NCBI RefSeq assembly: GCF_002113885.1
Contig: NW_018407955.1
Coordinates: 800,480-836,648 of the forward strand
DNA from: Mizuhopecten yessoensis
Lineage: Eukaryota
Length of the DNA: 36,169 nucleotides
Reading direction: 5' to 3'
The notes beneath the pieces were generated by a model, which did not search any database, was not told the origin of the DNA, and was given only the letters and a program-made list of their open reading frames with translations. Shown here piece by piece: positions 1,963 to 21,639 of the stretch. The first letter of the stretch is position 1, and the number at the start of each line of letters is the position of its first letter. Made by a program: the position numbers and the translations under genes.

Positions 1963-2043
1963 CACACCACCAAAGGTTCACTTTTACACTTGAGATCCAA
2001 CGGCCAAAAGTAATTCAAAATTTCAGAAGTACGGTATACATAC

Positions 2044-3497: not shown

Positions 3498-3536
3498 TTA
3501 ATCAATGAGATGTCCCTCTTCACTCTTTCTGTACCG

Positions 3537-3655
3537 TTGTCGTGTACACACGACAACGTGTACACACAACAATAAAATGTCATCCTGGTCTCCGTTGTTG
3601 TGTACAGACGACAAAATAATGGGCCGTCTAATGCGTTGTCGTGTACACACGACAA
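3537..3655. repeat. Tandem array of 20-bp near-palindromic units (ttgtcgtgtacacacgacaa x3-4), next to mini-element Z1
   Basis: Units at 3537-3556, 3557-3572 (partial), 3595-3614 and 3636-3655. Each can form a hairpin. Confidence 0.7.
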
Positions 3656-4194
3656 GAGACGTTGGTGTAACCTGTCTTGTGTTTAGCTGGTTATCGCACA
3701 CGACTGTCGCATAATACAATTAATTGTCGCTAAAATCAGCACTAATCAGTTGGAAAGAAATATTTTTATAGGTGCAGAGTACAGAATTTTCCTTAAGTGA
3801 CCTATTGTTTTCAAATTTGCCACAAGATGTTTGCGTTTGGTGTCTCAAATAGAATCAAGATGGTGGCAACTTTATTCAATATGAACACTGGTAAATTCAT
3901 CACAAAATATTTATGGACACTTATGGAAGTAAATATGAATATTTTAATATAAGTCTTGAAAACAGGGAATTGTATTGTTTGTTACCGGACAAATGTCGAT
4001 TTCTCAGTCATAATCAGCTGCCAGTTAGTCATAATTCTGCGAAAATGAAGAAGTGTGTGTCTATGAACAACAACATGAAACAATAACAACATTTGTTCAC
4101 GTTTACCTGTTTATTTCTTGCAACAGTTACACCTCGTCTAAAAAGTACATTATTAATTTGCCATTTTGATATATGAGCGGGGGCAAGTCTAGTA

Positions 4195-4282
4195 AGGGCA
4201 TCCGGTATGGAATCTGGACCAGATTTGCGTTACGGAATCCGGACCGGAATGGCGGTACGGAATCCGGACCAGATTTGTGATA
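4195..4282. repeat. Short tandem repeat (acggaatccggacc[a/g]gat.. x3)
   Basis: ggaatctggaccagatttgcgtt / acggaatccggaccggaatggcggt / acggaatccggaccagatttgtgat. Confidence 0.6.
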
Positions 4283-5342
4283 CAGAAAGAGTTAAACATC
4301 CTAAATTAATGAGTTGTCTCCTTAAACACTCTTAATTAAGGGGTTGTCTCCCTTATATAACATTTTTATATATTTACATAATCATATGTTATTACCAGTT
4401 ATGTTGATATTCATATGTGTACTTTTAACTTAATAACCTTGTCCAAAATAATCCATTGAAAACTATTTTAAAGCTGTTTAACTGTCAAAGTATTTTGAAA
4501 AGAAAATATATGCCACATTGAGTAATCAGCATACATCCTTAAGTCAAGTTGTGTTATCTTTAATTTGATCATTTCTAAACATTACACAATGTGTAAAGTG
4601 TTTTTATCTAAAATGACAATATGAAGACATCTGTTGTGAGAAAGCAAACTTAATCTTGTTGACACAATCGTGAAGTTCGGCCTTACCTGTACAGCTGTGT
4701 TGCCAGGACAACGAAATGTTACTACATGGCCTTTCCTACGTCCCTATAATCAGGATAAAAAAATCAAATTATTGTTTTTAAACAAAATACCTGTTTAATG
4801 ACGATGCAGTTGTGTGTTTCTCATTCATGCTAAAATGTCCAAAAATAGTCTCAAATGATTGATTCATAAGAGCCAAAAATAAATATGACATTTCTTTCCA
4901 CTGTAGGAAATAACCAGCACATTAAGAGACATTTGTTTTACCTGCAGACACATAAACGAATCAGATTCCCAAATGCATGCAGTACAAAAATACATAAATT
5001 CATTTTCAATAGTTTGTTTAACTTTGTGCAAGTTTAGGATAAAGAAAAGGCCTGCTTGTTCCACTTTATATCGGCAACCAATATAATGTGGGAGACAAAA
5101 TATTGCATAATTTGTGTTTAGGTTGGTGTCCTATGCTTTAATTTCAGAACATAGAAAAAGTAGATCTGCAAAACTCATTGCAACAATGTACTTCAATGAC
5201 TCTCTGGGTAAATATCATTACCATTCACTTTACCCACAAACTTTGTTTCGCTGTGTGATCAGTTTTTGTTGGCGGTCTGTGCGTCTAGCAGAACATCTTT
5301 AAGATCAGTCTCTATATCTGGTTAACTCTGTGATCATCTTAC

Positions 5343-5421
5343 CTCGAGTATCTGTGGGTCTATTGATTGTTCAAAGTAGGCCATCTTCCTGATGTCTCCT
5401 GACCCAGAACCTCCTCCTTGT
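5343..5421 (-). CDS. MVP: MVP exon 14 ((K)QGGGSGSGDIRKMAYFEQSIDPQILE)
   Basis: Acceptor ttactacag, donor GAG|GTAAGA. Aligns with KGQDPLADRG...TRVVSYRVPHNAAVQV. 79 nt. Confidence 0.8.
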
Positions 5422-6839
5422 CTGTAGTAACACAAGGGTAGAGTCAGAGACACAAAACATAGCAGAAATCATAAATATTAAGACAAACAAAAGGTCCAAA
5501 GTGCCTGTATGATTCACCTGTCAAGAAAGATTTTTTTTACCTTGATTTGATTACAGTAAAACTGTTATAATGCCACCCATCAAACCGCCAAACCTGCATA
5601 CCGCCATTAATTTACTCATAACGGATTTCCCCAACAATAATGCACCCGTTGTAATGCCAAACCCACATACCGCCATCATATTTCCAAAACAATTGGTTAA
5701 AATCACACATTTTTGACTTCGTTATATGTCGCCAATTGGAGTTGAGTACAGGTATATCCCGATGACAGGGATGTTACGTACGTGTGTACATTGTATTGTT
5801 ACACGTGACTGCCGACTGACCAGGTAATCAGCTGTATGTTTTGCACTCTCAATAATTTGATATATTAAATTCCATTTTAGAAAAAAAAAAGGTATCCTGA
5901 AGTAAATTTCTTAAATTTTTTAAAGTATAAGTTCAGTTGGTGTGTGAACACTTGGGTTTAAAACTGTAAAACCGATATACCGCCAAACTCATTATACAGT
6001 GGAACCCACTTATTATGATATCGGTTATTATGATATTTTCTCCGTGTACCGATTTTTCCTTCTTTAACTAAGCAAAACAAAATTGTTTAATATGATATGG
6101 TCAAAGGTGGGACCCCGCTTATTATGATATTTTTTCCGCCGTGAATGGATTTTATAAGGTAAAAACTCAGATAAGTTGTCCGTGTGAAAAAACCTTTACA
6201 AATAAACAATAGGTCCGGCTAACTGTACATCTCCCCAGGTGATCGCCTGTCCACTCCAGGTAAATTTTTCACACCTCGCGTCCACAGGGACCTGGGAATT
6301 TTTTACAGCTATATTTGGACCTAAACTAAGATGTTATAAGAGTATTTTACATGTTAATGAGGTTTAGATTGACTTTCGGTAAAAATGGCATCCCCAATGA
6401 TTATAATATACGGAGAAGGGAGGAAAGCTCTTGATGTCGAAATGTCGACCTCACCGAACTTTCTTGCATCAAAAACAACATTTCTAGTTGATCTACAGGA
6501 AAATGCTTAGTACCGTTTGGAAAGTTGGATAAGTTTTCTTTTAAACACTGTTAAAATCTCCCTGTGCCTGATGTTCTTATAGGTCAAATCCAAGCTTTTC
6601 TATTCTAAATCTGTTCAGTCATTTTTAGAAAGTAAACTTTGAACCCTTTCTTGATCTATTGTTCGTTTAAGCTGAATTTTCAAGAATTATCAAAATAAAC
6701 TTTTATATTGACATCATATGACGCCCTGAAGACAAGACAGCATTAAGTCATCAGTGGTTAGGAAACAGTTGACACACTTCACAATTCATCCCTAAGTCAT
6801 CTCTAAAATCAATAAACAGTATCAGACTCGTCTTCTTAC

Positions 6840-6934
6840 TTGAGGAGAGTTTCTGTATCTTCAGGCAGGACCTTTGTCCAAAGTTCTTCGTTCTCCGTCA
6901 ACATGTACGACTGGGGTCCCATCTCTGCCCTCAC
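6840..6934 (-). CDS. MVP: MVP exon 13 (VRAEMGPQSYMLTENEELWTKVLPEDTETLL-)
   Basis: Acceptor ttctacag, donor AA|GTAAGA. Matches [31 protein letters not shown]. 95 nt. Confidence 0.9.
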
Positions 6935-7380
6935 CTGTAGAATACACCACATATAAGCAGATGAGAGTAAAAAAACAAAAGATTACCGCAAAACTTTTTT
7001 TATATCTTAAATCAATAAATAATACAGGTACATATGTATATGCAAAATCCCATATTATTTCATATAATAAATACCAATGTAACAGCCTGTCTGATTGGAT
7101 TATTTTGGTGTGATAAAGAAATAATTGCCCTTTTGGGTAGTAAAACACGAATCTTTGTTTTCCTATTATTATAATCGTGTTTTGCAAGGTTGCAAATATG
7201 AGAAATAACACCTGAGAGAGATACAAACTACAGTGTTTAAAAAGATACAATAGTAAATTTTGACAATGGTTATTGAATTTGTATATATTCCACTGCTAGA
7301 AGCATAAACTCCAAAGTTTATAACCAATCAGAAGGCTAATACTTAAGGGAATCCTCAAATATTTTTGTTGTATATTTTAC

Positions 7381-7441
7381 CTTGCCGGTCTTCCTATCCT
7401 GAACATAGATGCCTTCATTTTTACTTAAAGGGATCTGTGTC
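7381..7441 (-). CDS. MVP: MVP exon 12 ((R)[20 protein letters not shown])
   Basis: Acceptor atttttcag, donor AAG|GTAAAA. Matches [21 protein letters not shown]. 61 nt. Confidence 0.9.
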
Positions 7442-7509
7442 CTGAAAAATAGATTTCATGATCATTAGTATAATTCACCAAAAAGACTGCTGAAGAAGTT
7501 AGTCCAACA

Positions 7510-7803
7510 TTTAGTTTGTTTGTGTTTTAATTCCTATTAACAACTTTAGTCATTTAAGGACTTGCCAGATTTTTGTGGTGGAGGAAAACCGGAGTTCCCA
7601 GAGGAAACCACCAACCTAGTGTGGTAGCCAAAACCGGAAACTGCCCACCTTGGCCTTGAAACCTTAACCCATTGGTAGAGGGCTAGTGGTCACAGATGGT
7701 CAGATGCCTTAACCACTTGGCTGATATGGTCCCATGGTCAAACATATCAGCCTTAACCACTTGGCTGATATGGTCCCATGGTCAAACATATCAGTCTTCG
7801 GAA
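7510..7803 (-). mobile_element. tRNA-derived SINE copy X2 with a 44-bp tandem duplication of the head (7716-7759 / 7760-7803)
   Basis: The body at 7556-7715 aligns with 9497-9690. The unit ccttaaccacttggctgatatggtcccatggtcaaacatatcag is duplicated. Degenerate (GTTT)n tail at 7512-7528. Confidence 0.7.
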
Positions 7804-8498
7804 CAACAAATGTTTTTTCTTAAGATACAAAGTTTTTCTTTTGCTTCAATCTGTATTAGGAGGAGGGCCTAAATGTACATATCTCTTACTTTAATATTTT
7901 TTACCTTTGTTAACACTGTATTTACACTTGCACTGCATATCCACTCTATTAAACTACCAAATAAAGTAAGTGTCTGTAGCACAATGAATGCAAAAGAATT
8001 GCGGTTCATTCATTAAGCTCTTGGTCATTGTGACTCTTGACTCTTAACAAAGTTGAGTAGCTTCAAATCAAACACTCAAGTGCTGTTCTGTCAATATCTC
8101 CCTTGAAGGCATCAAAGTTATCAGAGAAAGCCTTCAAACAAATGACTAATTTTTTGGAGTGTTAATAAAAAAGATTAAACATAATATTTTGTTATTGTCA
8201 TACAAACACACTTGTATGTATTGTTGTGGCTTCCTCTTGTATCTGTTGCCTAACAGTTAATTATTTACCCTGTCACCCTATGTAACTTGAGTAGACCATT
8301 TATGCATTGACATGGATGAGTCCATTATTGTCTACAGGGGCAAAAGGGTTAAAGTATAATATCTATATATAAGTTCAAACATTTGACAAAGGTAATTTCA
8401 TATACATATATATATTCAATGAAAAACATACAACTTTTTAAATGTAAAGATTGACATCTTTTCCATAAAAACTTGAAAACAGACAACTCTCTGAATAC

Positions 8499-8592
8499 CT
8501 TTTGTCAACAACATTGACATGTAATGGCGGAGTGTAGTCTATTGGGCCGCGTATCATCCAACGGTCACCTGGACTTCTCTTCACGGCCTTAC
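8499..8592 (-). CDS. MVP: MVP exon 11 ((G)[30 protein letters not shown]-)
   Basis: Acceptor ttacccag, donor AG|GTATTC. Matches [29 protein letters not shown]. 94 nt. Overlaps ORF 8438..8707(-). Confidence 0.88.
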
Positions 8593-9079
8593 CTGGGTAA
8601 CGAAATACAAGTCTCATAAACAAAATGTTTACAAACACAGTAATACATTGTTGCTTGATGAGCATATTTTTCATGCAGGTCATATTCATATTGTTATTAT
8701 TATACATATCTACATAAAGTTAGGAAAACAAATATTTGATTGCTTTCCTTGGCAAAATCTAAAGAAATTGTAGAGGGATGGCTAGAAATATATATTCGGC
8801 AAAATATTCTCACAAATTATTCATGGATACACTGTAAATGAATGTTCCCAAAGAATCTGCAGATTTGTGAAACAGTTCACCTGATTAATTCTACATTTCA
8901 GTAAACATGTGAGGTTTCTTACTCCCAAAGAAAACTCACTCTTGCTGAATTTTGTATTTCTAGCAGGTGAAAGTGTTTTTTGTCGAATTTTCTCTCATCC
9001 ATTCAAATACTATGAACTTTACTTGAGATTTAATATTTCCTTCAGTATCAATGTGTGAGGTTTATTTTATATACAGTAC

Positions 9080-9184
9080 CTTTGCCTAAAACTTCCATTA
9101 TATATTCGTCAGCCTGAAGTACCAGAGCCTCATTATCAGACAAGATGTATGCACTTTGAACTTTGCCGTTCTCAAGGGTTTCGC
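9080..9184 (-). CDS. MVP: MVP exon 10 ((G)ETLENGKVQSAYILSDNEALVLQADEYIMEVLGK-)
   Basis: Acceptor atgttgcag, donor G|GTACTG. Matches [31 protein letters not shown]. 105 nt. Confidence 0.85.
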
Positions 9185-9442
9185 CTGCAACATAAATACC
9201 AGAATGTAACAATAATTAGGAACTTTCCTCTCCTCGTTGAGAAAACCTTATATCAAAACTTCTGTTCATCAATGTCGAGACAAAACTAATTTCCAAATGT
9301 TTTTCCAGAAAAAATATGACTTTAATGAATTGGTTTTTACAAGGATAAATCTTCAAAGATTTTTCAAATCAAATAACAATATTTCAAAGGTATTACTAAC
9401 TGAAATTACAAAAATGTTTTTAACATGACATCATTATCTTTC

Positions 9443-9690
9443 TTTTAGAGTATTTGTTTATTTATTTGTGTTTTGTGTCCTATAACCAGCTATGGTCAAT
9501 TAAGGACATGCCAGGTTTTGGTGGTGGAGGAAAGCAGGAGTACTCAGAGCAAAACAAATGACCTGGCGGCCAGTACATGGCAATTGCCCTGTGTAGGGCT
9601 TGAGCCCATGACCCAATGGTCAAGGTCTGGTGATCATAGACGGTCAGACACTGTAACCACTTGGCCACCGCGGCCCCTTTTTGGAGTCTA
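9443..9690 (-). mobile_element. tRNA-derived SINE copy X3; its head ends 22 bp from the MVP exon 9 donor site
   Basis: Minus-strand head GGGGCCGCGGTGGCCAAGTGGTTACAGTG...GGGCTCAAGCCC. Body shared with X1 and X2. Degenerate (GTTT)n at 9443-9470. Confidence 0.7.
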
Positions 9691-9711
9691 ATATGAATTA
9701 ATATTACAAAC

Positions 9712-9853
9712 CTGGATGGAGGAAAAAGCTGCAACATCCGGTACGGAGCTCCCTCTTCCCCAGCTGTGGTTTACAGTTTTTGTCCACTACATCCAATACG
9801 ATACAATACTCTCCCTTCTTCACCACAATTCTTTTTTCCTCAGACAATATTGT
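9712..9853 (-). CDS. MVP: MVP exon 9 (TILSEEKRIVVKKGEYCIVLDVVDKNCKPQLGKRELRTGCCSFFLHP-)
   Basis: Acceptor ttttgcag, donor G|GTTTGT. Matches [34 protein letters not shown]. 142 nt, ends phase 1. Confidence 0.85.
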
Positions 9854-10817
9854 CTGCAAAACAAAATACAGAATTCTATTTTGAGTATTGTTTTTTTTTG
9901 GAGTGGTACACTGGATAACACACTCATCCTTTATTAAGACAAAAGGTTTTCAAATTCCTAATCAGACATGAGAAGGCATTTGATCATCTGCCCAGACTTT
10001 TATCTGGGTAACCTTGTTTCTTCCCTTATTAAGACCCTCTATGTGCTTTCATCCATTAACGTAGATAGGAAGTCCTTTTTCCTTATTGTTGTAAAATAAA
10101 TAAAGTTTATACAGGTTTACGAAATAAAAAAATTATCAGGAATTCAGCCCAAATGAGATCTAGACTGTTTCATAGCACCTGGACACTGGGGTACTGGTAG
10201 GAGTGGGTCGACCCCCGGTGTCGAAGGCAACCTGTGTTGACCTCTAAATAGGGTCTTTAAATGATTCGATAGACAAAGGTTTATTTCAGAACAGCCCTTT
10301 ATCTAATTATCCAGTTGTGAAGTTCAAATATATGTGATATTATTCCAGGCAAATCCTTAGAAAAAATAAGTTGTCAGTCTCAAATTCAATGTTATATGTT
10401 TGCCTTTGAAATTTTATAACAATTACACTCTAAGAGAAGTGGAATGGATACATTATCTTCAGGATTTCAACACAGTTTATTGAATAGATTTTTTATTTAT
10501 TTTATTTTATGGAATTTGATTATTATTTATTCAATCTTGTTGAATATAGCACCACCCTTTTTAAACAAATTCATCATACTCTAAGTTTCTGTAGTATACC
10601 TAGGGTTATTAAGGCGCACTCATCGTTATTTACCAGTACAGGGCAGTGGCGGATCCATAGACCTATCTGGGGGGAGGGGGGCATGTGGGGAAAACTTCAG
10701 GAAAATAGTGAAAATACATGATTTTTAAAGAAATTCTCAGGGTGGGGGGTTCCTGAAGCCCAAAAAAACCCTCTGGATCTGCCACTGCAGGGTAGAATCA
10801 AGTTTTACAACTCATGT

Positions 10818-11290
10818 GTGTTTCCACATTTTATCTACTGTAGTACTATAAGGTCTGGCTGCTCTGCAAATTTGATGGATAAATTGTTTAAAGCTCAAAA
10901 GCAGGCAGCACGTGTTATGCTTGATGTACCATATGACACACCTTCGTGTGTTATGTTTTCAGATCTAAAATGGTTACCTATTGAGGAAGTTTTTAGATTT
11001 AAGAAGCTGTGTATGTTTTACATATGTATTCATGGCAAGGTACCAAATTATTTGTGTGATAATATAACACTTGTTAAAGATGAGCACACAAGAAATACCA
11101 GACATTCAAATGCAAACAATGTTGTTGTCCCTAAGCAAAGAACTTCTTTTTATTCAAAACAATTTTAACATCTGGTGCTCAAGCTTGGAATAGTCTACCA
11201 ACTGATTTAAAAGACATTCAACATTTAAATTATTTCAGGGGCAGACTCATAAATTATTTTTTGAATTCTTAAACTATCATTTTTTTTATA
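10818..11290 (+). mobile_element. LINE ORF2 C-terminal fragment (CR1/L2-like tail) in an MVP intron
   Basis: ORF 10818..11168 reads YCSTIRSGCSANLMDKLFKAQKQAARVML...LKWLPIEEVFRFKKLCMFYICIHGKVPNYL...HTRNTRHSNANNVVVPKQRTSFYSKQF. It continues frameshifted as AWNSLPTDLKDIQHLNYFRGRL, the typical C-terminal region of CR1/L2-type ORF2. Short direct repeats (ggtggtctcttaa x3) follow at 11600-11690 and may mark the 3' terminus. Confidence 0.6.
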
Positions 11291-11703
11291 TAAATCTACA
11301 TATGTATTTCAACTCCTGCTATATTAGCGTAAAACCCTGGAAAATTTTACTGTTTGCTATATTAGCATATATGTATATTAGGCATTATGTCATTTCGTGG
11401 ATTAACCAAACTTGTGCACATTTTAAATTGATATGAATCTGTGATATTAATATACAAAACCTCTTATATATTGATGTATCTTACTCACCATTAGTATGTT
11501 CTACTAATTTTGAGGATGTGGTAGATTAGCCTTTGGCTGTACATGTATTATCCTCGTTAAATGAAGTTTATTATTATTTATTATTATTAATGCAGGTGGT
11601 CTCTTTACACAGGTGGTCTCTTAATACAAGTTAATTTCCAAATGAAATATATAACTGCAATGGGGAAATTAAAAGTGGTCTCTTAACACAAGTGGACTTT
11701 TAA

Positions 11704-11769
11704 CCCCAAAGTCACATTTGAACCTTACCAAATCAAAGACTGGGCAAGTCCATCTTAAAAATGTAGGGG
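11704..11769. mobile_element. TTAA-flanked mini-element, related family Y (CCCCaaagtcacatttgaacc...aatgtaGGGG)
   Basis: TTAA at 11700-11703 and 11770-11773. The core aagtcacatttgaaccttaccaaatcaaagactgggcaagtcca is shared with 26735-26800 and with the rc of 18680-18735. Confidence 0.55.
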
Positions 11770-11846
11770 TTAAACGATCAGTTATATATTCTAGAGCTGT
11801 GTACTTTGTAATTTGCACTTTTGACCAAGACTTCTATAATACTGAC

Positions 11847-11913
11847 CACTCCTATCTCAGGCAGGTACTGTTCCAAGTCCTCACCGGTCACCAGCCATTC
11901 CTCACCTACCAAT
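11847..11913 (-). CDS. MVP: MVP exon 8 ((R)LVGEEWLVTGEDLEQYLPEIGV)
   Basis: Acceptor ttgtag, donor GTG|GTCAGT. Donor chosen because it keeps the vault-repeat length and phase. Matches [22 protein letters not shown]. 67 nt. Confidence 0.75.
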
Positions 11914-12282
11914 CTACAAAACAGAATCAGGAAATAAGAGGCACATTGGACCTGTATCTGTCACTTTTTTTGACTAAATCAGAATCTCATTGATAGTTTG
12001 ATTGATTCCGCTGTCACATTTATCTCTGAACCAATTTCGAGATGAAAAGACAATTGCTCGAGTATTTCATAGCAGAATAATATATGTGATATTTGTGAAA
12101 TAAATGTCACTCGGAAAATGAAATATAAAGTCACTGCATGATGACTTACTTGTACTGGCCAATAAACAAAATTCATCAAAATACTGACAATTTTTTTACA
12201 AATCATTCCTGAAAAGAAACTGATACCTTGTAGAACTTTTATGAAAATCAAGATAAAATGATAGAATGTAACAGGGCCACAC

Positions 12283-12365
12283 CAGGTTTTGAACCTTGCA
12301 CCTTATGTCTAAATACAGTCACTTAAACAAACTGAGCTGCCTGACCAGTGGATCTGTCCCACTGC
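12283..12365 (-). repeat. tRNA-like SINE head fragment (minus strand)
   Basis: rc reads ggtcaggcagctcagtttgtttaagtgactg...ggttcaaaacctggtgtggccc. Homologous to the head at 33470-33560. Confidence 0.45.
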
Positions 12366-12475
12366 ACTTTATAATCAAACCAAAATTAAGGGGAGACTTC
12401 TATATGTTTTAAAAACTGTAATGGAATTCCCTAGTGTTTAGCATGCAGTGGATCCTAAATCAGAACTGAAGTTAC

Positions 12476-12570
12476 CTTTTGATGCCCTGCCTGTCAGTAA
12501 TGGAGTGTGTCGCTTGTAATCTCAGGCCTTGATCGGGTGTCAGTGTGACCTGTTTCTCCACACCCAAAAC
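12476..12570 (-). CDS. MVP: MVP exon 7 (VLGVEKQVTLTPDQGLRLQATHSITDRQGIK-)
   Basis: Acceptor gttacag, donor AG|GTAACT. Matches [32 protein letters not shown]. 95 nt. Confidence 0.85.
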
Positions 12571-13227
12571 CTGTAACAATGGCAATCAGCATAATTGCTG
12601 TATTTATCTTGCAATAACCCCACGCCTGGCATTAAGCTCACACATATATATTGCAGTTTAGCAGCAATGCTACAAAATACTATTTCATTGTCATGTTATA
12701 AGACAATCCCTTTGTATTGACTTATTGCATGAGTAAATGTGATAACTTAGTTACAGTATATATCATATGGTAATGGTATTTTTATTTTCATTTTCCTCAC
12801 TTATGATTTTCAAACAATAATGTATTGATTTCTAAAAAGATATATCTCTAAATTTTCTTTAGAATTTTGATTCACATACATACTTATGTATTGCAAATGA
12901 AAATCAGATACAGCAAAGATTTTTTTTTACAAAGGGGCTACTAAGATAAACACTCCAGGCTGCAAATGCCTCTTCATGACTGTATTGTTTTAAAACAACA
13001 GTGCATATCATAGACACACGTTTTGACTGAATGAGTAACAGCAGATAGCTCGTCCAATTTGAAACTTTTAAACCGCCATCATGTTTTGATGAAACTAGAT
13101 GCATACCTATCAGCTTCTAGTTTAAACATGTTTCTAGGGCCATTTTCCTTTAAACGGTTGAACCGGTCGGACCACAGCTGTTCGTTTATTAAATAAGGTT
13201 GGACCTAGTAATCTGATGCTGCTTTCA

Positions 13228-13275
13228 GGCAAGCCTTGTCAAAGCCTTGACAAAGCCTTTACAAAGCCTTGCAAG
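13228..13275. repeat. 10-bp tandem repeat (acaaagcctt)x4-5
   Basis: caagccttgtcaaagccttgacaaagcctttacaaagccttgcaaggcc. Confidence 0.8.
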
Positions 13276-13407
13276 GCCTGCATAAACATTTGCGATCCGC
13301 CAGGATTATATACCCGAAATTGATACATTTAAAAATGAACAAACCGGTTGTTCTGCATAAACAAACGGTTCCTGGGTTATGTCGAGTCGATGTTTGTTAA
13401 TTTTTAC

Positions 13408-13477
13408 CTTTTCATATACGTCCGGGAGGTAGTCTCCTGTCGTGTAATGGATCCACTCCTCACCGGTCACACGCTCC
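13408..13477 (-). CDS. MVP: MVP exon 6 ((V)[23 protein letters not shown])
   Basis: Acceptor ctttaaag, donor AAG|GTAAAA. Matches [24 protein letters not shown]. 70 nt. Confidence 0.85.
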
Positions 13478-13911
13478 CTTTAAAGAAAAATCTATCAAGT
13501 TGACATGATTAAAAGAATTTAATAAGTAGACCTTTTTATGACACCAAATAGTACTTAAGGTTTTGTGACGGGAGAACGTATTCAAAAAGAGAGCCACCAT
13601 TATATTCCCCAGCGGAAATCTTGCAAAATTCTATTTTTAGTGTTAGTGACCTTGACCTTGAGCCAGTCATGCCCAGAATTAACACGGTTTTTGACATTAC
13701 AAAGGGCAACAATCAAGCTATCATTCAGACTACTCCAACAGTGTTAGAGGTTTCCACGGCGAGATACTTTATACAGGAGCGTAGTCGGCAAATTCATATC
13801 CGATAGAAACAAGAGGCCCATGGGCCTTAACGGTCACCTGAGTCCTACAATATTTATTTTTGTTGTTGAAATATGTACCAATTTGAGTAAAAAATAGTAT
13901 AATGTTAACTT

Positions 13912-14372
13912 AACTTTGTCAGGACCATGAGCTGATCATTCCTAGACCAATTTTAAGTGAGATCGGCCTATTAGAACTTAGTAGCAAAATAGCGGCCATG
14001 GCAGCCAAATTGTATTTCTGATTGACCCGAAAAATAACAACACTTTGTCAGGACCATGAGGCGATCATTCCTACCAACTTTCAGTTCAATCGGTCCAGCA
14101 GAACTTGACTTTAAGTTTGAAATAGGTTTTCAAAATGGCGGCCGTGGCGGCCATATTGGATTTCTGATCGACCCGAAAAATAACAACACTTTGTCAGGAC
14201 CATGAGGCGATCATTCCTACCAACTTTCAGTTCAATCGGCCCAGCAGAACTTGACTTTAAGTTTGAAATGTAAAATGTTAACGGACGACGGATGACAGAC
14301 GACGGACGACGACGGACGAAAACGGATAGCAATAGGTCACTTGAGCTAAAGCTCAGGTGACCTAAAAAGGCA
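13912..14372 (+). repeat. Tandem-repeat element: ~146-bp unit x ~2.6 followed by an ACGG-rich tract and a terminal hairpin (aggtcacttgag..ctcaggtgacct)
   Basis: Units start at 13912, 14042 and 14188 (actttgtcaggaccatgaggcgatcattcctaccaa...). Tail 14271-14372 is acggacgacggatgacagacgacggacgacgacggacgaaaacgg + hairpin + ctaaaaa. Confidence 0.75.
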
Positions 14373-14689
14373 TACCAGCGGCCACTTATGTTATAGGAGT
14401 ATCATTCAGACAAGAAAAACCATGTCAAATTCACTTTTTAGCAACTGTTAGAATTCCCATGATTCTGTGTGCCTATTCTGTAGTGCACTTCTGGCGATGT
14501 TATTGTGATATGAGTACTACGCCAGAACATCACCAGAATATCAACGCTAGGGCGGCAATATTCTGGGCATTTCTGGCAACACGTTCTGGTGAACTGATTT
14601 ATGTGCAGCGGTATTGCTGCAATATAGCCGTAATATCACTGCAGACTTTCTCATTTTTGTAAGGGCTTGCTTGGCCATGTTCTACATAC

Positions 14690-14781
14690 ACGCCATTGCA
14701 GTCCGTGAAGTACACAGTTGCGCTGAGTCTCAGTCCCTCTCCATTCTGCAACACTATCGGTTCAACCATCTTCTCTATTTC
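14690..14781 (-). CDS. MVP: MVP exon 5 (EIEKMVEPIVLQNGEGLRLSATVYFTDCNG-)
   Basis: Acceptor atttgtag, donor GT|GTATGT chosen by phase. Matches [32 protein letters not shown]. 92 nt, ends phase 2. Confidence 0.75.
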
Positions 14782-15199
14782 CTACAAATTAAACAAACAA
14801 AATTAAGAAAGTTAATTTCTTAAGAATTCAGCTTAAAACAGAAAACATTGATCCAACATCCAAACTATACATCCTATGGGCTACCACAGAATGATACATT
14901 TGGGACAAACTGGCTGCGATGAAACTTTGCAGTTTTAAATGAACAACACTGGAACCAATTTACCTTGCTACCATTACATAACTTTCTATTACCGGTAGTG
15001 GGGTTGTATGTAACTATACTCATATTTCAAGGGTGAAGATGACCATTTCCTTGTCCCAACCTGAGTGAGACATTCTGAAAAATTTCTTGATGTCGCAATG
15101 AAGCTAAATGAGTCAAGTCACTTTTTATGCATGAACATTATCTCTTTCCAACAATAGACAAAACACTACGAATTTCCAATGCTGATTTGTGTACATACA

Positions 15200-15335
15200 G
15201 TAACCTCCCTGTAATTTCAGTTTGGTAATAACTGCAGTATTACTGGGTCAGGTCAACTTCTGTCCACCAGGTAGCTCTGGCTGTTATAGTGACAGTATAA
15301 AGATCCAAAGTCCGGGTTCGAATCCTGATCAGTTT
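15200..15335 (+). repeat. tRNA-related SINE-like repeat, family V copy (acagtaacctccc... + tRNA-like GGTAGCTC..GGGTTCGAATCC)
   Basis: Shares a leader and tRNA-like A/B boxes with 17950-18090 and 27418-27730. Does not fold as an intact tRNA. Confidence 0.5.
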
Positions 15336-15828
15336 TATTTTACTTTTATACTGTATAACATGAAATGTTCATTGTGTATAAACATTTATTTTCGTGGATT
15401 TTATTGAACCACGAAAATAAATACAAGGAATTTGAATGATATGCGTGTCTTTTGTGTGTTAATATGGAATATGCATGAAAGTTTGTACCACGAAACAATC
15501 TAAATGACTTCAAACCACGAAGGAAAGTCCCCACGAACATCTCGTGTTATACAGTACTCAGAACACTGCTGTGGATTCTTTTATGGTTTATTTATCACAG
15601 GGGTGTTTTTTTCATAAAAGTTCTGCAATGTATCTTATTCTTTTCAGAAATTATTTATCAAAAGGAGCTACACTCAATTTCAAAGCTTTTCGATTTTACC
15701 ATTACACTGCTGCAGGATTCCTTTGATCTTCATCAGACATTAGACTTGTCTACATGTATTATCCGCAAGGTGCTGTGTAAAGAGCCTTTAATTTTATCTT
15801 TAATAAGATTCATCAGTTTGGAAATATG

Positions 15829-16170
15829 CTATATCAAAGTTTTGCTTTCTACACAAACAATGTACATACGCGACGTTTTAAGACCGACTGGTCCCTTTGT
15901 CAAGCTATGACTGAGTGAGCGATTTGTATTTTTTACCTGTACAATGATGTAATGCTGTAATTAAACTATCTGATGCAGTGTGTATACGATAGGCGAAACG
16001 TCCCGGGTCGAGTGACTTCAAAAATATACAATTTCGTCAGATTGTTGTACTGGTAAAAAATACAAATCGCTCACTCAGTCATAGCTTGACAAAGGGACCA
16101 GTCAGTCTTGATACCTTGTGACACGCTTAAAATCTACATTTTTTGTGCAGAAAGCAAAACTTTGATATAG
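15829..16170. mobile_element. Foldback/MITE-like element with ~110-bp terminal inverted repeats
   Basis: Left arm 15829-15938 (ctatatcaaagttttgctttctacacaaacaatgtacat...gaccgactggtccctttgtcaagctatgactgagtgagcgatttgtattttttacc) is near-identical to the rc of the right arm 16040-16170. Confidence 0.7.
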
Positions 16171-16409
16171 TCTTTAATTTTGTCAAAGCATCTTACAGGC
16201 CCCGGGATCATGACACAATTTAAGACTGAAGTGTTTGCTTAGCCAATCACATATAACGTTACATTTCATGAAATTATTGTGATTGGTTGACTTCAGACAA
16301 TTTTTGACTGAAGATCGATTCATGATCTCGTGAATCAAAATCAGAACCATTGGATTCCAAGGTAGGCTATACAGTTGAAACTGGAGGGATGAGAGATGAA
16401 ATGACTTAC

Positions 16410-16634
16410 CGCTTCAGGAGAAGGGAAATAGGTGAGGGGGCCTTTCAGCTGCCACTGGTCCCCAGCCTGATATTTCCCCATCTCATTTTCAAAGTCCACC
16501 AGTGCTCTCAGTCTGATTGCATGGTTAGCCTTTACCGTAGGGAGGGGCTTCAAGGCTGGCGCATAGCTTGACCTACCTGTTTGGTACTCAGGGGCCCCAC
16601 TAAGGACCTCGCCAGGCAACAGGGGAAAGGGCTC
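16410..16634 (-). CDS. MVP: MVP exon 4 (EPFPLLPGEVL...ANHAIRLRALVDFENEMGKYQAGDQWQLKGPLTYFPSPEA)
   Basis: Acceptor attgtag, donor GCG|GTAAGT. Matches DPFPLYPGEVL...[35 protein letters not shown]. 225 nt, phase 0 to 0. Overlaps six-frame ORF 16341..16619(-). Confidence 0.9.
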
Positions 16635-17439
16635 CTACAATACCAACAATATCTCATTGTAGTAGAAAACACCATTTTTCCTATAGTCCCGTCCCATTGG
16701 TTGGATCATAATCACATGGAGGTCAGTAATTTAGGATATTGATTAGGTGTTACTTTTATTTTGGAACAGCAGGTTAATAATCTATTTATGACCTTGTTTC
16801 AACTGTAATGTAAAAATGCTCTCTGCCAAATGCAGTAGATTTCTCCTGACAATTTTTATACATTCCATCTTGTTAATAATAGAAATGAGATTCATTATTC
16901 GGTATTAATTAGAGACTCTTATTCAGGTGAAAATGTGGTTAAATGGACGTGAAAAATAGATAATGACCCGGACTTTGTATATGTCTATATCACATTCTCA
17001 GATCCATAAAACCACATATATTTACCTTTACAAAAGTCCATCACTGATAAATAGTCTCACAGCAAATATAGCTGTTCTTGAATATTTGTTGGCAGGTGTA
17101 GTTTCCCTACTTTGTCCCTTACCATTCCCACTCCAACACCTCCCACCTTGATAGGTAGGTAGAGACTATTTTTTTCATTTTCGGACATGTCTGGTTTCTT
17201 AGTTTGAAACATTAATTTTGAGGATTCTTTCAGCCAAATGTTGTTTGTTTATTAAAAGTTAATTGGAAAAAAAAAGTAGTTATCAACTATGGGGAACTGC
17301 AAACAATTTTTACTGATAGCCTAGTGACTCATTTCAAAATGTCTTTGAATATTCATGATCAACGTCCAAATAATTCCTTCATTCCAAATATCTTGTCATT
17401 CTGAAACAGTAGTCACTGATTCTTTATACATTTCCAAAA

Positions 17440-17530
17440 ACTATTGACTTTTAACCCCTGACCACTGTAGACCTTAATAGATTCACCCAAGTCAATGCAT
17501 GGTAGAGTCTAGTAAAGTTACATAGGGGTG
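17440..17530 (-). repeat. Partial copy of the SINE-X 3' region
   Basis: ggtagagtctagtaaagttacataggggtgaaatgg and upstream bases match 1790-1870. Confidence 0.5.
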
Positions 17531-17644
17531 AAATGGTAAATATTCTATTATTCCATAACCGTATGTGCTATTTGTTTAAGTTCACCAATTTCATTGTTAA
17601 TAAAACATCTACCCCCCGTAGGTGAACTAGAGGTGACTACTTAC

Positions 17645-17708
17645 CTGGTAAAATTTGTACTGTTTTTGGCCCAGAAGGTTCTGACTAACTTGACCAGGTA
17701 CATAATTC
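17645..17708 (-). CDS. MVP: MVP exon 3 ((M)NYVPGQVSQNLLGQKQYKFYQ)
   Basis: Acceptor ttttttttcttcag, donor CAG|GTAAGT. The single leading base completes the ATG codon from exon 2. Aligns with GQVRLRHADLEIRLAQ (GQV conserved); a few residues shorter than the vertebrate protein here. Confidence 0.65.
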
Positions 17709-17949
17709 CTGAAGAAAAAAAATCACAGGGATCAGACATTATCTATCTTTTGTAGAATTGTTAAATATTTGAAAAAAAAAATTAATGTACATGTATATAT
17801 ATTCATTACCAATTATGTGAAAACATTGTTACAGTGCAAACCTCAGTCCAATGAAAGTTTTATGTCAAAGAAAGAGTCAAGAATTCATCTGTCACCCCTA
17901 CATATCAATCCCCAGTATGTTAACCTCAGTACCGTATTTCCTCTGTAGA

Positions 17950-18090
17950 ATTTCATATATACAGTAACCTCCCCTTAATTTCATTTTGTGATGTAATTGT
18001 ATTGGGCAGAAGCACTACCGTTGACCAGGTAGCTCAGTTGGTTAGAACAACCGTTTACTGATCAGAGGTGTAGGGTTTAAATCTTGGAGA
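17950..18090 (+). repeat. tRNA-related SINE-like repeat, family V copy
   Basis: acagtaacctccccttaatttc...ccaggtagctcagttggttagaacaaccg...gggtttaaatc. Confidence 0.5.
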
Positions 18091-18225
18091 AGCCCCATTG
18101 CATTTTCACAATAAGAATACTGTTGTTGCTTCATTTTTGTTAATTACATCATTGTCAGCTTTTCACAAAAGTTTTGCAAGTATGGTTTTCTTTTTCGATA
18201 GGAGTTGTCAAAGCTATAGTAATGC

Positions 18226-18611
18226 CATCCTCGATATCCAGGGGTTACGCTCACTTTCCCTCTCTGCACCCCTGGAATATGTCATAGCAAAATTGAAGGC
18301 ATGAACATAGCTGTTTGATTGGTCTCAGGTAAACAAAACTGAACAATAGCTAGGCTGATACCTGTCCTTTGAAGATTACAAAGGCGAGCCACCTGACTTC
18401 AAAGCGGATTTAGCCTGTCAATTTTTACTGTTATGTGACCATGATATTCTTTTGATGTACATCAAACTAGTCTTCTTGTTTCAGCAACAAGGTGGGAGCT
18501 TTGTTGCAGAAACAAGAAGACTAGTTTGATGTACATCAAAAGAATATCACGGTCATTTGCTTCCAGGGGTGTAGAGAGGAAAGTGAGCATAACCCCTGGA
18601 TATTGAGGATG
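18226..18611. mobile_element. MITE copy 1 (~70-bp TIRs, internal 105-bp palindrome), in the MVP intron between exons 2 and 3
   Basis: Left TIR catcctcgatatccaggggttacgctcactttccctctctgcacccctggaa. Right TIR is its reverse complement, ending ...ccaggggtgtagagaggaaagtgagcataacccctggatattgaggatg. Degenerate 9-bp flanks tagtaatgc / cagtattgc. Perfect 40-bp inverted repeat at 18445-18549. Confidence 0.75.
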
Positions 18612-18659
18612 CAGTATTGCTAGAAAATACAAGAATCTTTAAGAAATTTCATACCTAGA

Positions 18660-18735
18660 TACTTTTGTAAACTCATTCACCCCTACATTTATAAACTGGA
18701 CTTGCCCAGTCTTTGATTTGGTAGGGTTGAAATGT
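18660..18735. repeat. Family Y mini-element copy (inverted orientation)
   Basis: rc reads cctgaaagccacatttcaaccctaccaaatcaaagactgggcaagtccagtttataaatgtaggggtgaatgag. Confidence 0.5.
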
Positions 18736-18792
18736 GGCTTTCAGGGTACATGTACGGTATATGGTTAATAAATGTTTAACAAATATACATAC

Positions 18793-18926
18793 ATGCAAGG
18801 GTTCTCTATGACACAGTAATGCCCTGGAGGGACTTTGATCATAGGCAGGGGCCCTCGATGTAGCTTCTCATTGTTCTTCAGAACAACTGTCTTTGGACCG
18901 ATATCAATACTGGTGATATTCCTGTT
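18793..18926 (-). CDS. MVP: MVP exon 2 (NRNITSIDIGPKTVVLKNNEKLHRGPLPMIKVPPGHYCVIENPC-)
   Basis: Acceptor tttttttaacag, donor CAT|GTATGT. Matches human [44 protein letters not shown]. 134 nt, ends phase 2. Confidence 0.85.
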
Positions 18927-20326
18927 CTGTTAAAAAAAATCAAAAAAATCTGATGATTAATTAATTAATTCAAACTACTCTCAAACTACATCAGACTTAT
19001 GACCAGTGCAAATATTAGTACTTGCCTAAAACATTGTCTACATATCCTATCTTACAGTTTGTTACCAAGTGTACTGTCGGTGTAGTATACCTTGACTATC
19101 TCTCCCATGAACATCTCTTGATTGTTCAGAAGATGTTGTACAAAACACTGTGTTAAAGCCGGACTACAGACAAACAACTGATATCACACCATGGTATAAC
19201 AACTTAACATGCTGTTTGGGCAGGTGAGCTAAAAATGAGAAAAAAAGTGATTGATTCAAACCAAAATTTCGCTTTAATCTATTAGAAGTCAGCAGAGTTA
19301 ATTAGCACTAATTCAGTATAATTGAGCAAGAATCCTGCTCATGAGGCAAAGGAAAAAGAAATACTTTTACCCATTTTGCTAGCCAGGTTTCTAGCCTTAC
19401 CTATAGTGTTTGTACCAGGAAAAGTCAGGATTGCATAATTCAATGAAACATCCTATTTTGTTATGGATCAGATGTACATATGCACAAAACCTTTACCTTT
19501 TAAATGTCCGACTTTGAAGTCCATTGTAAAACATGATATACTATGGGTTGCAAACTTTATATCATAAGTCGTTAAGAAAACATTTATCATTGTCTTGGAT
19601 TGAACATATATATATATATATTTCTGTATCTTGGTATCGACCTAATAAACTTATTTCATGATAAATAACATTAATTTATATTATGTGTTATTATTTACAA
19701 TTTGCTGGCTTAATGCGTTGTATATATTCTCAGAACACAGTTTACTAAATTAGTAATTGGTTATGGTCGATCACAGAAAATATTGCTCTGCCATTTTTAG
19801 TCCTTGCTTACTTTTATGTGTGCATTCTCTATTTTTAGTTTGCTTGCATGATTTTGTTTTTATGTTGTTGTAAAGATATGCTTGTATGTATTCGGTTAAA
19901 AGCTCATTAGAGCTTATGTTTGTAGTTTGTAACTATACCGAATTAAAATAAAACTTTCATATATATATAATCATATATACATGATTAACCGATTGGGAAC
20001 TCTTTTTTATGACCACCTTCTGTAATGAACTTAGTGTTAGCACATTCTCCGGGCCTCTAATTACGTGCAAAAAAACATGGAAAGCATAAAATAAGATATA
20101 AACAAAGTGCACGCAGAGATTTTATGGTAAAAAAAAACAAAAAACTATCGATAGTATACTTTCACGACGGCAACTTTCATAGCCTATGGACATCGTGCTG
20201 AGTCGACAACTTCGACATTGTCACAACCAGGGCAGTTGCATTGACAACTGTCAAAAACTGTCAGAAATTCCCCATAAATATTGCTTTATATTAATTGACA
20301 ATTGTACAAATTTGTATTTTACTTAC

Positions 20327-20386
20327 TAGATCAGTCACATGCACATAAAAATGTGGCTTCAGACCGATAATGCTGCCGGTAGCCAT
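20327..20386 (-). CDS. MVP: MVP exon 1 (start codon; MATGSIIGLKPHFYVHVTDL)
   Basis: ATG = rc of 20384-20386, ~45 bp downstream of TATA. Matches the [20 protein letters not shown] N-terminus of MVP. Donor GTAAGT (rc of 20321-20326), phase 0. Confidence 0.75.
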
Positions 20387-20428
20387 AGTTGTCGTTTTCT
20401 ATGTCTATTCTTGTCAATGACGCGTTTG

Positions 20429-20436
20429 TTTATAAA
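20429..20436 (-). promoter_or_regulatory. TATA box (TTTATAAA) of the MVP promoter with adjacent GC box (GGGCGG, rc of 20438-20443)
   Basis: TTTATAAA lies 43-50 bp upstream of the exon 1 ATG on the minus strand. GC box immediately upstream. Implies a TSS near 20400 and a very short 5'UTR. Confidence 0.55.
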
Positions 20437-20447
20437 TCCGCCCGTCT

Positions 20448-20459
20448 AGTTTCACTTCC
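20448..20459 (-). promoter_or_regulatory. ISRE/IRF-like element GGAAGTGAAACT on the minus strand, ~12 bp upstream of the TATA box
   Basis: One mismatch to the ISRE consensus GAAANNGAAACT. A second GAAACT half-site lies on the + strand at 20534-20541. Confidence 0.35.
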
Positions 20460-21639
20460 GCATATGTACATACCGGTATTTTTGGCGAAGGGTGGAAAGC
20501 GGATTATGTTCCGGCAAAAATGAAGTACCTGTCGTGAAACTAATACCATGGTAACAAATTACGGAATCTCTCTAACATTCTGTCAGTTATATATTATTTT
20601 AGAATACACATTTTTTTCTTTCCATATACAATTCAATTGTATATAATAACAGTAGAAAATAACGATGTAGGTAAAAAATATTCTTTCTGAAAAATATCAT
20701 CAGAGTTATCTCCCTTCTTCCATGTCTCTTTAGTTTAGAGGAGTTGAACACGGTTCTTGTAAACAAGTGTCTGTTGCCTGCGAACACAAAGCCCTCTAAC
20801 TCTTCGCTATAGACACTCCATTTTAAATAAATTCTGTATCTTAAATCAGTAAAATTCCCGTTTTTGGTCGAAACAGGTTCAAAAGCGCCATACCTCTTTC
20901 TTTTCTCAAATTCAGTATGGCTTCATGCCCGGAGATTCTGCCATTTATCAATAATTGGACACATACCTTACGATATCAGGAAGGTTAAGATATTGATAAG
21001 AAAAATATTTCTGACAGTGGAGGAGGGGTGTGGGTTGAAGGTGTTGGGGGGGGGGATATATATTTGATTAAGTCTGACATAAGAATCATTTTTATAAATT
21101 TAATTAAAATCAGTTTAATGGGTAACTCAGGACACCTTTTACGCTGTTTCGAAAATTCCTAGTTGTAAGAATGGGTAAGTCAACCGAGCCTCAGAGTAAC
21201 AAATAGAAACTTTAGAACCAGGGTAATACATTTTCTGAGATACCCCTGACTTCAATTAAATTAATAAATAGGAGTCTTATTTCAGACTCGGTCAAATATT
21301 TTCAAGCCCTCCTCCCCTTTCCACATCCCGACCTAATCCATTCTTTCCTACCGGAAAGACCGACTTTAGCTCAATATCTAGATAGTCTCTAGATATAAAA
21401 CTCGGTGTTCTACAGGGCTCCGTTCTAGGTCCTACACTATTTCCCTTTTACATATTAATCACGGTGTATGTGTATTAATATTTCTTTAGTAATATGTTAT
21501 GTGTGTTTGTTCAGTATTCGAGTCTTCGCAGTAGAAAGTCCATATCAAGTGGTCAGCGTCCACAGATGATGGTGTTATCCAGAGACATATAAAGCCAGTA
21601 GTATATACATCTCTGTGCTACCAGACTGCTAACACGATT

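What the first reader, a model, noticed from the sequence alone, without database searches (positions are those of the whole stretch)
20400..20560. Compact MVP promoter: GC box, TATA and an ISRE-like GGAAGTGAAACT within 75 bp of the ATG
On the minus strand, GGGCGG then TTTATAAA lie 43-57 bp upstream of the ATG. Just upstream (20448-20459) is GGAAGTGAAACT, one mismatch from the ISRE consensus GAAANNGAAACT. A second GAAACT sits at 20534-20541. Vertebrate MVP is interferon-inducible through STAT/IRF elements. An IRF-type site at the same position in an invertebrate MVP would suggest conserved innate-immune regulation of vaults.
Basis: partly seen in the sequence, partly recalled or inferred. Interest (0 to 1): 0.5.

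Follow-up and report, generated by a model that had tools for sequence, protein, structure and literature searches.

The report
Ordinary promoter of MVP-like gene

Summary
Every sequence statement in the finding is correct. On the minus strand, GGAAGTGAAACT lies at 20459-20448, GGGCGG at 20443-20438 and TTTATAAA at 20436-20429, that is 73 to 43 nt upstream of the ATG at 20386. A second GTGAAACT lies on the plus strand at 20534-20541.

The ATG opens a gene with all the Pfam vault domains. An in-frame stop, the lack of a splice acceptor, a GC-box/TATA pair unique in the window and a local CpG-rich patch suggest the proximal promoter is here. No transcript data could be obtained.

The interferon reading is not supported:
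- The motif has only one canonical IRF half-site.
- It matches an ETS site (GCGGAAGT) and an ETS-IRF composite (GGAANNGAAA) without mismatch.
- ISRE-like matches are not enriched in the window (8 found, 4.7 expected).
- The human MVP promoter is TATA-less and interferon-gamma-responsive through a GAS/STAT1 site, not an ISRE.
- The gene belongs to a divergent "MVP-like" clade, so it is not the orthologue of vertebrate MVP.
- No orthologous promoter could be retrieved, and two distant family members lack the motif.

Verdict: an ordinary promoter plus an untested motif match. Interest is low.

The parts
20327..20386 (-). Coding part of exon 1 of the MVP-like gene. It encodes MATGSIIGLKPHFYVHVTDL, with the ATG at 20386-20384. 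The donor GTAAGT follows at 20326-20321.
   Evidence: It aligns with human [20 protein letters not shown]|QN, and exon 2 (18929-18792) continues QNRNITSIDIGPKT. The Logan transcript L001 of a related species spans the same junction.
20399..20401 (-). In-frame TAG five codons upstream of the ATG. It rules out an N-terminal extension within this exon.
   Evidence: Read directly.
20402..20402 (-). Inferred transcription start, the A of a CA dinucleotide 32 nt downstream of the first T of TATAAA. This is an inference only, and it would give a very short 16-nt leader.
   Evidence: Spacing read. The match to an initiator consensus is weak. There is no transcript evidence.
20429..20436 (-). TTTATAAA, the candidate TATA box (-50 to -43 from the ATG).
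20438..20443 (-). GGGCGG, a GC box (Sp/KLF type) one base upstream of the TATA element.
   Evidence: there are 5 GGGCGG in the window. A GC box followed within 15 bp by TATAAA is unique in the window and occurs in 2% of shuffles.
20448..20459 (-). GGAAGTGAAACT, the ISRE-like 12-mer. It has one mismatch to the consensus, in the 5' half-site. It is a perfect GGAANNGAAA (ETS-IRF composite) and holds one IRF half-site, AAGTGAAA.
20454..20461 (-). GCGGAAGT, an ETS-family core site (SCGGAAGY) that overlaps the ISRE-like element.
   Evidence: The name of the consensus comes from my own knowledge.
20490..20495 (-). CCACCC, a CACCC/GT box (KLF/Sp type). This is a consensus match only.
   Evidence: Read.
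20508..20515 (-). GCCGGAAC, a second and weaker GGAA-core (ETS-like) match.
   Evidence: Read.
20534..20541 (+). GTGAAACT, the second copy of the 8-mer, inverted relative to the gene (-155 to -148).
   Evidence: these are the only two copies in the window. Such inverted 8-mer repeats occur in 34% of random 161-bp segments.
20351..20600 (.). CpG-rich patch over exon 1 and the 200 bp upstream. CpG observed/expected is 1.38-1.52, about the 99th percentile of 200-bp windows, in a window with an overall value of 0.57.
1187..18929 (-). Remaining exons of the MVP-like gene, reaching about residue 549 of human MVP. The gene runs off the low end of the window.
   Evidence: Pfam Vault, Vault_2, Vault_3, Vault_4 and MVP_shoulder all hit.

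Best explanation
Positions 20400-20560 are the proximal promoter and short 5' leader of a major-vault-protein-like gene on the minus strand. The genome is CpG-depleted and about 36% G+C, and is probably that of a bivalve mollusc.

The likely working parts are a TATA box (TTTATAAA), an adjacent GC box for Sp/KLF factors, and further upstream a GGAA-core site (GCGGAAGT) of the kind bound by ETS-family factors near many promoters. They sit in a small patch that is presumably unmethylated and CpG-rich. If the TATA box is used, transcription would start around 20402, or more diffusely within the patch.

The resemblance of GGAAGTGAAACT to an interferon-stimulated response element is most likely incidental. 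It may be a by-product of an ETS site followed by GAAACT, or plain chance. The sequence holds one IRF half-site, not the two that define an ISRE.

Shown: the motifs and their positions, the start codon and gene identity, the lack of an upstream acceptor, the CpG patch, and the motif statistics. Inferred: that this is the promoter, the position of the start site, and which factors bind.
For: - Start codon and exon 1 agree with the human MVP N-terminus and with a related transcript.
- An in-frame TAG lies 13-15 nt upstream of the ATG.
- The 60 nt before the ATG are A-rich and lack the T-rich tract seen before the other exons of this gene.
- The GC-box/TATAAA pair is unique in 36 kb and arises in 2% of shuffles.
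- CpG observed/expected is 1.38-1.52 at 20351-20600 against 0.57 for the window.
- No repeat copy of the region exists elsewhere in the window. There is no Rfam or tRNA hit and no divergent ORF upstream.
- ISRE-like matches are not enriched.
- The element matches SCGGAAGY and GGAANNGAAA perfectly but the ISRE only with a core mismatch.
Against: - There is no transcript, CAGE or RACE evidence. The only related transcript, L001, is truncated inside exon 1.
- A start at 20402 gives a 16-nt leader, which is unusually short. Initiation may therefore lie further upstream, which would put the motifs inside the 5' UTR.
- Locally, the ISRE-like match is nominally rare (1.7% of shuffles of the 200-bp region).
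- Oyster IRFs do activate mammalian ISRE reporters (PMC5557890), so a functional IRF site cannot be excluded.
Confidence: 0.6

Rival explanations
1. GGAAGTGAAACT is a functional IRF-responsive element. It could work as a degenerate ISRE or as an ETS-IRF composite element. Either way it would make this vault-protein paralogue inducible by antiviral signalling through bivalve IRFs, with or without an ETS partner.
For: - The 3' half, AAGTGAAACT, is a canonical IRF half-site with the usual CT extension (one search gives the half-site definition).
- GGAANNGAAA is matched perfectly.
- The match is nominally rare in local shuffles, at 1.2-1.7%.
- Oyster IRF2 and IRF8 activate human ISRE and IFN-beta reporters (PMC5557890).
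- Vertebrate MVP is interferon-gamma inducible (PMC3216873).
Against: - The 5' half-site is GGAA, not GAAA.
- The window as a whole shows no enrichment.
- The motif was chosen after the fact among many possible ones.
- The vertebrate precedent is a GAS/STAT1 site, not an ISRE, and no GAS consensus lies within 1 kb upstream here.
- The gene is not the orthologue of vertebrate MVP.
- The crinoid MVP-like and snail MVP 5' regions have no proximal ISRE or EICE.
- No expression data link bivalve MVP-like genes to poly(I:C) or virus in the papers found.
Confidence: 0.12
2. The real transcription start lies further upstream. It could be dispersed within or above the CpG patch, or in an unrecognised non-coding exon. 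In that case the TATA-like and ISRE-like strings would lie in the 5' UTR or an intron and would not be promoter elements.
For: - A TATA-directed start leaves only a 16-nt leader.
- TATAAA is common in this AT-rich sequence, with 67 copies in the window. It appears in 23% of shuffles of the 200-bp region.
- The canonical snail MVP (L004) has a clear acceptor 25 nt before its ATG, and so a non-coding first exon as in vertebrates.
Against: - No T-rich acceptor lies upstream of this ATG, unlike the real acceptors of the gene.
- The CpG patch ends at about 20600.
- A start above 20470 would add an upstream ATG and a 13-codon upstream ORF (read).
- The next 1 kb upstream is unique AT-rich DNA, followed by transposon remains.
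Confidence: 0.2
3. None of the short motifs is functional. They are chance matches in the region that happens to precede the start codon.
For: Each motif carries only 12-16 bits. TATAAA, AANNGAAA and GGAAGT occur at shuffle-expected rates in the window.
Against: The joint GC-box/TATA arrangement at the expected distance from a genuine start codon, inside a CpG-rich patch, is unlikely to be pure coincidence.
Confidence: 0.08

Closest known systems
Human MVP/LRP promoter (Lange et al. 2000 and Steiner et al. 2006, as summarised in PMC3216873)
   Same: It drives a vault shell protein gene, contains a GC box, and the gene is linked to immune signalling.
   Different: The human promoter is TATA-less. 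It has an inverted CCAAT box and a p53 site, and its interferon-gamma response runs through a GAS/STAT1 site. The window has a TATA element, no proximal CCAAT, no GAS consensus within 1 kb, and an ETS/IRF-like string instead. The genes are paralogous, not orthologous.
Interferon-stimulated response element (ISRE, GAAANNGAAA(CT))
   Same: The 3' half-site plus extension, GTGAAACT, is identical. The spacing to an upstream purine-rich tetramer is correct.
   Different: The 5' half-site is GGAA, so only one canonical GAAA is present. Binding and inducibility are untested.
ETS-IRF composite element (EICE, GGAAnnGAAA) of vertebrate PU.1/Spi-B with IRF4/IRF8
   Same: It is a perfect match to the 10-mer consensus.
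   Different: EICE function is defined by cooperative binding of Spi-subfamily ETS factors with IRF4/8 in vertebrate immune cells. Nothing is known of such pairs in molluscs. The consensus occurs 3 times in the window against 2.0 expected.
Promoter-proximal ETS site (SCGGAAGY / CCGGAAGT type, GABP/ELK class)
   Same: GCGGAAGT matches the consensus exactly and lies about 50 nt upstream of the inferred start, a typical location.
   Different: It is a sequence match only. The other CGGAAGT copies in the window are not at promoters. One lies in a stretch that looks tRNA-derived and SINE-like, and another lies in transposon-rich DNA.

Membership tests
ISRE (ISGF3 / IRF-dimer element) | Two GAAA half-sites separated by 2 nt (GAAANNGAAA) | tested here: not met
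   The sequence is GGAAGTGAAA, so the 5' half-site is GGAA. The definition is from PMC6954429.
ISRE (ISGF3 / IRF-dimer element) | 3' extension CT after the second half-site (GAAACT) | tested here: met
   GAAACT at 20453-20448.
ISRE (ISGF3 / IRF-dimer element) | Occurrence above background | tested here: not met
   8 matches with up to one mismatch against 4.7 expected. 16 of 100 shuffles reach 8.
ISRE (ISGF3 / IRF-dimer element) | Conservation in orthologous promoters | tested here: inconclusive
   No close orthologous promoter could be fetched. The distant crinoid MVP-like and snail MVP 5' regions lack it.
ISRE (ISGF3 / IRF-dimer element) | IRF/ISGF3 binding and interferon-type or poly(I:C) inducibility of the gene | not testable with these tools
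   This needs EMSA or ChIP and expression data. The literature searches found no such data for bivalve MVP-like genes.
ETS-IRF composite element (EICE) | Sequence GGAANNGAAA | tested here: met
   GGAAGTGAAA at 20459-20450. The consensus is from PMC4334403.
ETS-IRF composite element (EICE) | Cooperative binding of a Spi-type ETS factor with an IRF4/8-type factor | not testable with these tools
   There are no binding data, and the organism is unidentified.
TATA-box core promoter | TATAAA about 25-35 nt upstream of a mapped transcription start | not testable with these tools
   TATAAA is present at 20434-20429, but no transcription start is mapped. The related transcript L001 is 5'-truncated.
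TATA-box core promoter | Lies directly upstream of the first exon, with no intron between it and the ATG | tested here: met
   No T-rich acceptor lies upstream of the ATG. The real acceptors of the gene are T-rich.
Major vault protein family | Vault repeat domains plus the shoulder domain | tested here: met
   Pfam Vault (2e-47), Vault_3 (8e-38), Vault_2, Vault_4 and the start of MVP_shoulder all hit.
Orthologue of vertebrate (canonical) MVP | Groups with the canonical metazoan MVPs | tested here: not met
   The gene is 45-54% identical to canonical MVPs, whereas those share 62-81% with each other. The canonical clade excludes the window group in 99 of 100 NJ bootstraps.

The most novel reading that the evidence does not exclude
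GGAAGTGAAACT is a working ETS-IRF composite element in a lophotrochozoan. It would place a vault-protein paralogue under antiviral (IRF) control. That would show that ETS-IRF cooperativity, known from vertebrate PU.1/Spi-B with IRF4/8, predates vertebrates.
Probability: 0.05. Interest if true: 0.55.

Novelty: new member of a known kind. Interest (0 to 1): 0.15.

Why it matters
As it stands it matters little. It is a plausible TATA/GC-box promoter for one more gene, plus a factor-site match of the kind found by chance in most promoters.

It would matter only if experiments showed IRF-dependent induction. That would tie vault-type particles to invertebrate antiviral responses.

A more useful by-product is that the gene belongs to a second, divergent MVP-like lineage. 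That lineage is shared by sponges, cnidarians, molluscs, echinoderms and hemichordates. Conclusions drawn from vertebrate MVP regulation therefore cannot simply be transferred to it.

Tried and rejected
1. Phylogenetic footprinting did not succeed.
- The closest relative found, Logan transcript L001 (78-87% nucleotide identity in exons), starts inside exon 1.
- The Mactra antiquata locus L002 begins in intron 1, so exon 1 lies outside it.
- The Bulinus locus L006 holds only the 3' half of the gene.
- The Mytilus, Mya and Nematostella proteins are not on record.
- A third protein search with the N-terminus returned nothing.
- Two metagenome scans gave nothing or an unrelated bacterial-type hit whose peptide looks like a sugar epimerase, L005.
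- An exact-ORF look-up next to the promoter found nothing.

2. Naming the organism did not succeed. The hits to the reverse-transcriptase ORF carry no names, and the SRA run number appears in no paper. 'Bivalve' is inferred only from the best protein matches.

3. The inverted GTGAAACT pair was rejected as a meaningful repeat.

4. A non-coding RNA or tRNA in the region was rejected.

5. A divergent gene sharing the promoter was considered. No ORF or coding signal lies upstream, only unique AT-rich DNA and then transposon remains.

6. ORF fragments from 24.4-36.2 kb were listed and inspected by eye. They did not look coding and were not scanned further.

Full report
**Observation**

The minus strand of 20100-20900 was read directly. 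It reads 5'-...ATATGCGGAAGTGAAACTAGACGGGCGGATTTATAAACAAACGCGTCATTGACAAGAATAGACATAGAAAACGACAACTATGGCT...-3'. Motif scans place the elements as follows.

| Element | Window coordinates | Position from the ATG |
|---|---|---|
| GGAAGTGAAACT | 20459-20448 | -73 to -62 |
| GGGCGG | 20443-20438 | -57 to -52 |
| TTTATAAA | 20436-20429 | -50 to -43 |
| ATG | 20386-20384 | start |
| GTGAAACT (plus strand, inverted) | 20534-20541 | -155 to -148 |

**The gene**

The chain runs from 20386 down to about 1187 and then off the window.

Exon 1 encodes MATGSIIGLKPHFYVHVTDL and ends at a GTAAGT donor (20326-20321). Exon 2 (18929-18792) continues QNRNITSIDIGPKT. The junction falls exactly where human [34 protein letters not shown] would place it.

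The assembled 546 residues hit Pfam Vault, Vault_2, Vault_3 and Vault_4 and the start of MVP_shoulder.

The best matches are bivalve proteins (Mytilus P0010, Mactra P0014). The closest of all is an unnamed Logan transcript contig, L001 from run SRR26445938, at 78-87% nucleotide identity in exons. The organism itself could not be named. 'Bivalve mollusc' is an inference.

**Not the canonical MVP**

Canonical MVPs of human, snail, coral, sea urchin, flatworm, horseshoe crab and the bivalves Potamilus and Pinctada are 62-81% identical to each other. The window's orthologue L001 is only 45-54% identical to them.

L001 is 56-66% identical to Mytilus P0010, Mactra P0014 and the crinoid Anneissia 'MVP-like' P0031. 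The same second class includes Saccoglossus P0099, Nematostella P0035, Bulinus P0061 and sponge proteins.

In a neighbour-joining tree, the canonical clade excludes the window group in 99 of 100 bootstraps. Molluscs and cnidarians have members of both classes, so this looks like an old paralogue. This rests on partial sequences and a simple tree. One paper reports four MVP genes in Aplysia (PMC9334734).

**Is this the promoter?**

The evidence is indirect, but it points one way.

- An in-frame TAG lies at 20401-20399, so the ATG is the first possible start.
- The 60 nt before the ATG are A-rich and lack the T-rich tract that precedes the other exons of this gene. No intron ends just upstream. 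By contrast, the canonical snail MVP (L004) has a clear ...ttttctttcttcctag acceptor 25 nt before its ATG, and so has a non-coding exon 1 as in vertebrates.
- A GC box followed within 15 bp by TATAAA occurs only here in 36 kb. It arises anywhere in only 2% of dinucleotide shuffles.
- The window is CpG-depleted overall (observed/expected 0.57), but 20351-20600 reaches 1.38-1.52, about the 99th percentile of 200-bp windows. That is what an unmethylated promoter patch looks like in a methylated genome.
- The segment has no copy elsewhere in the window, no Rfam or tRNA hit, and no sign of a divergent gene.
- Upstream lie 1 kb of unique AT-rich DNA and then transposon remains. These include a dispersed repeat at 21674-22007 and a non-LTR reverse-transcriptase ORF at 23354-24388.

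A TATA-directed start would fall near the CA at 20403-20402 and leave a 16-nt leader. That is short, so the exact start is uncertain. A start above 20470 would add an upstream ATG and a 13-codon upstream ORF. No transcript evidence could be obtained, because L001 begins inside exon 1.

**The ISRE-like element**

The canonical ISRE is two GAAA half-sites two bases apart (PMC6954429). Here the 5' tetramer is GGAA, so only one canonical half-site is present.

The same 14 nt are a perfect GCGGAAGT, the promoter-proximal ETS consensus SCGGAAGY (the name is from my own knowledge). They are also a perfect GGAANNGAAA, the ETS-IRF composite element (PMC4334403).

The statistics do not single the motif out.

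- ISRE matches with up to one mismatch occur 8 times in the window against 4.7 +/- 2.4 expected.
- GGAANNGAAA occurs 3 times against 2.0 expected. CGGAAGT occurs 4 times against 1.7.
- In shuffles of the 200 bp upstream of the ATG, each reading arises in 1.2-1.7% of trials. That is nominally rare. But the three readings are one sequence, chosen after the fact among hundreds of possible factor consensuses of similar information content.
- GTGAAACT occurs only twice in the window, both times here. However, 34% of random 161-bp segments hold an inverted 8-mer repeat.

**Comparison with what is known**

- The human MVP promoter is TATA-less. It has a GC box, an inverted CCAAT box and a p53 site. 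Its interferon-gamma response goes through a GAS/STAT1 site (PMC3216873). There is therefore no IRF or ISRE element 'at the same position' to be conserved. No TTCNNNGAA lies within 1 kb upstream here.
- The idea is biologically possible. Oyster IRF2 and IRF8 activate human ISRE and IFN-beta reporters (PMC5557890).
- I found no report linking bivalve MVP-like genes to poly(I:C) or viral induction.

**Conservation**

- Mactra exon 1 lies outside the retrievable locus.
- The Bulinus locus lacks the 5' exons.
- Several proteins are not on record.
- The protein and metagenome searches came back empty.
- Two distant 5' regions were available: the crinoid MVP-like gene (L003, ATG at 7193) and the snail canonical MVP (L004). 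They show no ISRE-like, EICE, ETS, TATA or GC-box match within several hundred bp of the ATG. This is weak negative evidence only.

**Verdict**

The segment is most likely an ordinary compact promoter (TATA box, GC box and a GGAA-core site) of a divergent MVP-like gene. The interferon/IRF interpretation is an untested motif match that is no better than its ETS reading.

| Reading | Probability |
|---|---|
| Ordinary promoter, ISRE resemblance incidental | about 0.6 |
| Transcription start elsewhere | about 0.2 |
| Functional IRF-responsive element | about 0.12 |
| All motifs are chance matches | about 0.08 |

Interest is low (0.15).

Noticed in passing
window 1187-20386 (minus strand); loci L001, L002, L003, L006: The gene belongs to a second, divergent 'MVP-like' class. 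Members share 55-66% identity with each other and 45-53% with canonical MVP. The class is found in sponges, cnidarians, molluscs, a crinoid and a hemichordate, alongside canonical MVP in the same phyla. This looks like an old metazoan paralogue.
   Followed up: partly
window 15522-15532 (minus strand): A perfect Ig-kappa-type NF-kB site, GGGGACTTTCC, lies inside an intron of the MVP-like gene. The exact 10-mer arises in 3% of shuffles. As an 'immune' motif it is at least as good as the ISRE-like one, and it was equally chosen after the fact.
   Followed up: partly
window 25714-25725: A palindromic kB-like GGGGAATTCCCC lies in the repeat-rich stretch upstream of the reverse-transcriptase ORF.
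   Followed up: no
window 27655-28078 (plus strand): A tRNA-like head with A and B boxes (TAGCTCAGCTGGTTA ... GGTTCGAATC) is followed by three to four tandem repeats of about 47 bp (27894-28078). It looks like a tRNA-derived SINE. ARAGORN calls no tRNA. It contains one of the window's two CCGGAAGT strings.
   Followed up: partly
window 21570-25900: A nest of transposon remains lies 1.2 kb upstream of the promoter. It holds a 39-bp direct repeat (21570-21608 and 22107-22145), a 335-bp dispersed repeat (21674-22007, about 79% identical to 29233-29559), a (CAAT)14 microsatellite (22871-22927), and a non-LTR reverse-transcriptase ORF (23354-24388, minus strand, Pfam RVT_1).
   Followed up: partly
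L004 5975-6003 (Candidula unifasciata canonical MVP): The canonical snail MVP has a polypyrimidine-AG acceptor 25 nt upstream of its ATG. It also has CCAAT/ATTGG boxes about 265-285 nt upstream. That implies a non-coding first exon and a CCAAT-type promoter like the human one, unlike the window gene.
   Followed up: partly
L002 1-31156 (Mactra antiquata) and L003 7137-17910 (Anneissia japonica): In both public annotations the MVP-like gene is split into two gene models, an N-terminal fragment of 159-215 aa and the rest. In Mactra a 615-aa gene without Pfam hits lies on the opposite strand between the two parts.
   Followed up: no
L001 about 770-900: The Logan transcript contig of the closest relative carries a frameshift that splits the MVP-like reading frame into two called genes. 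This is probably an assembly error.
   Followed up: no
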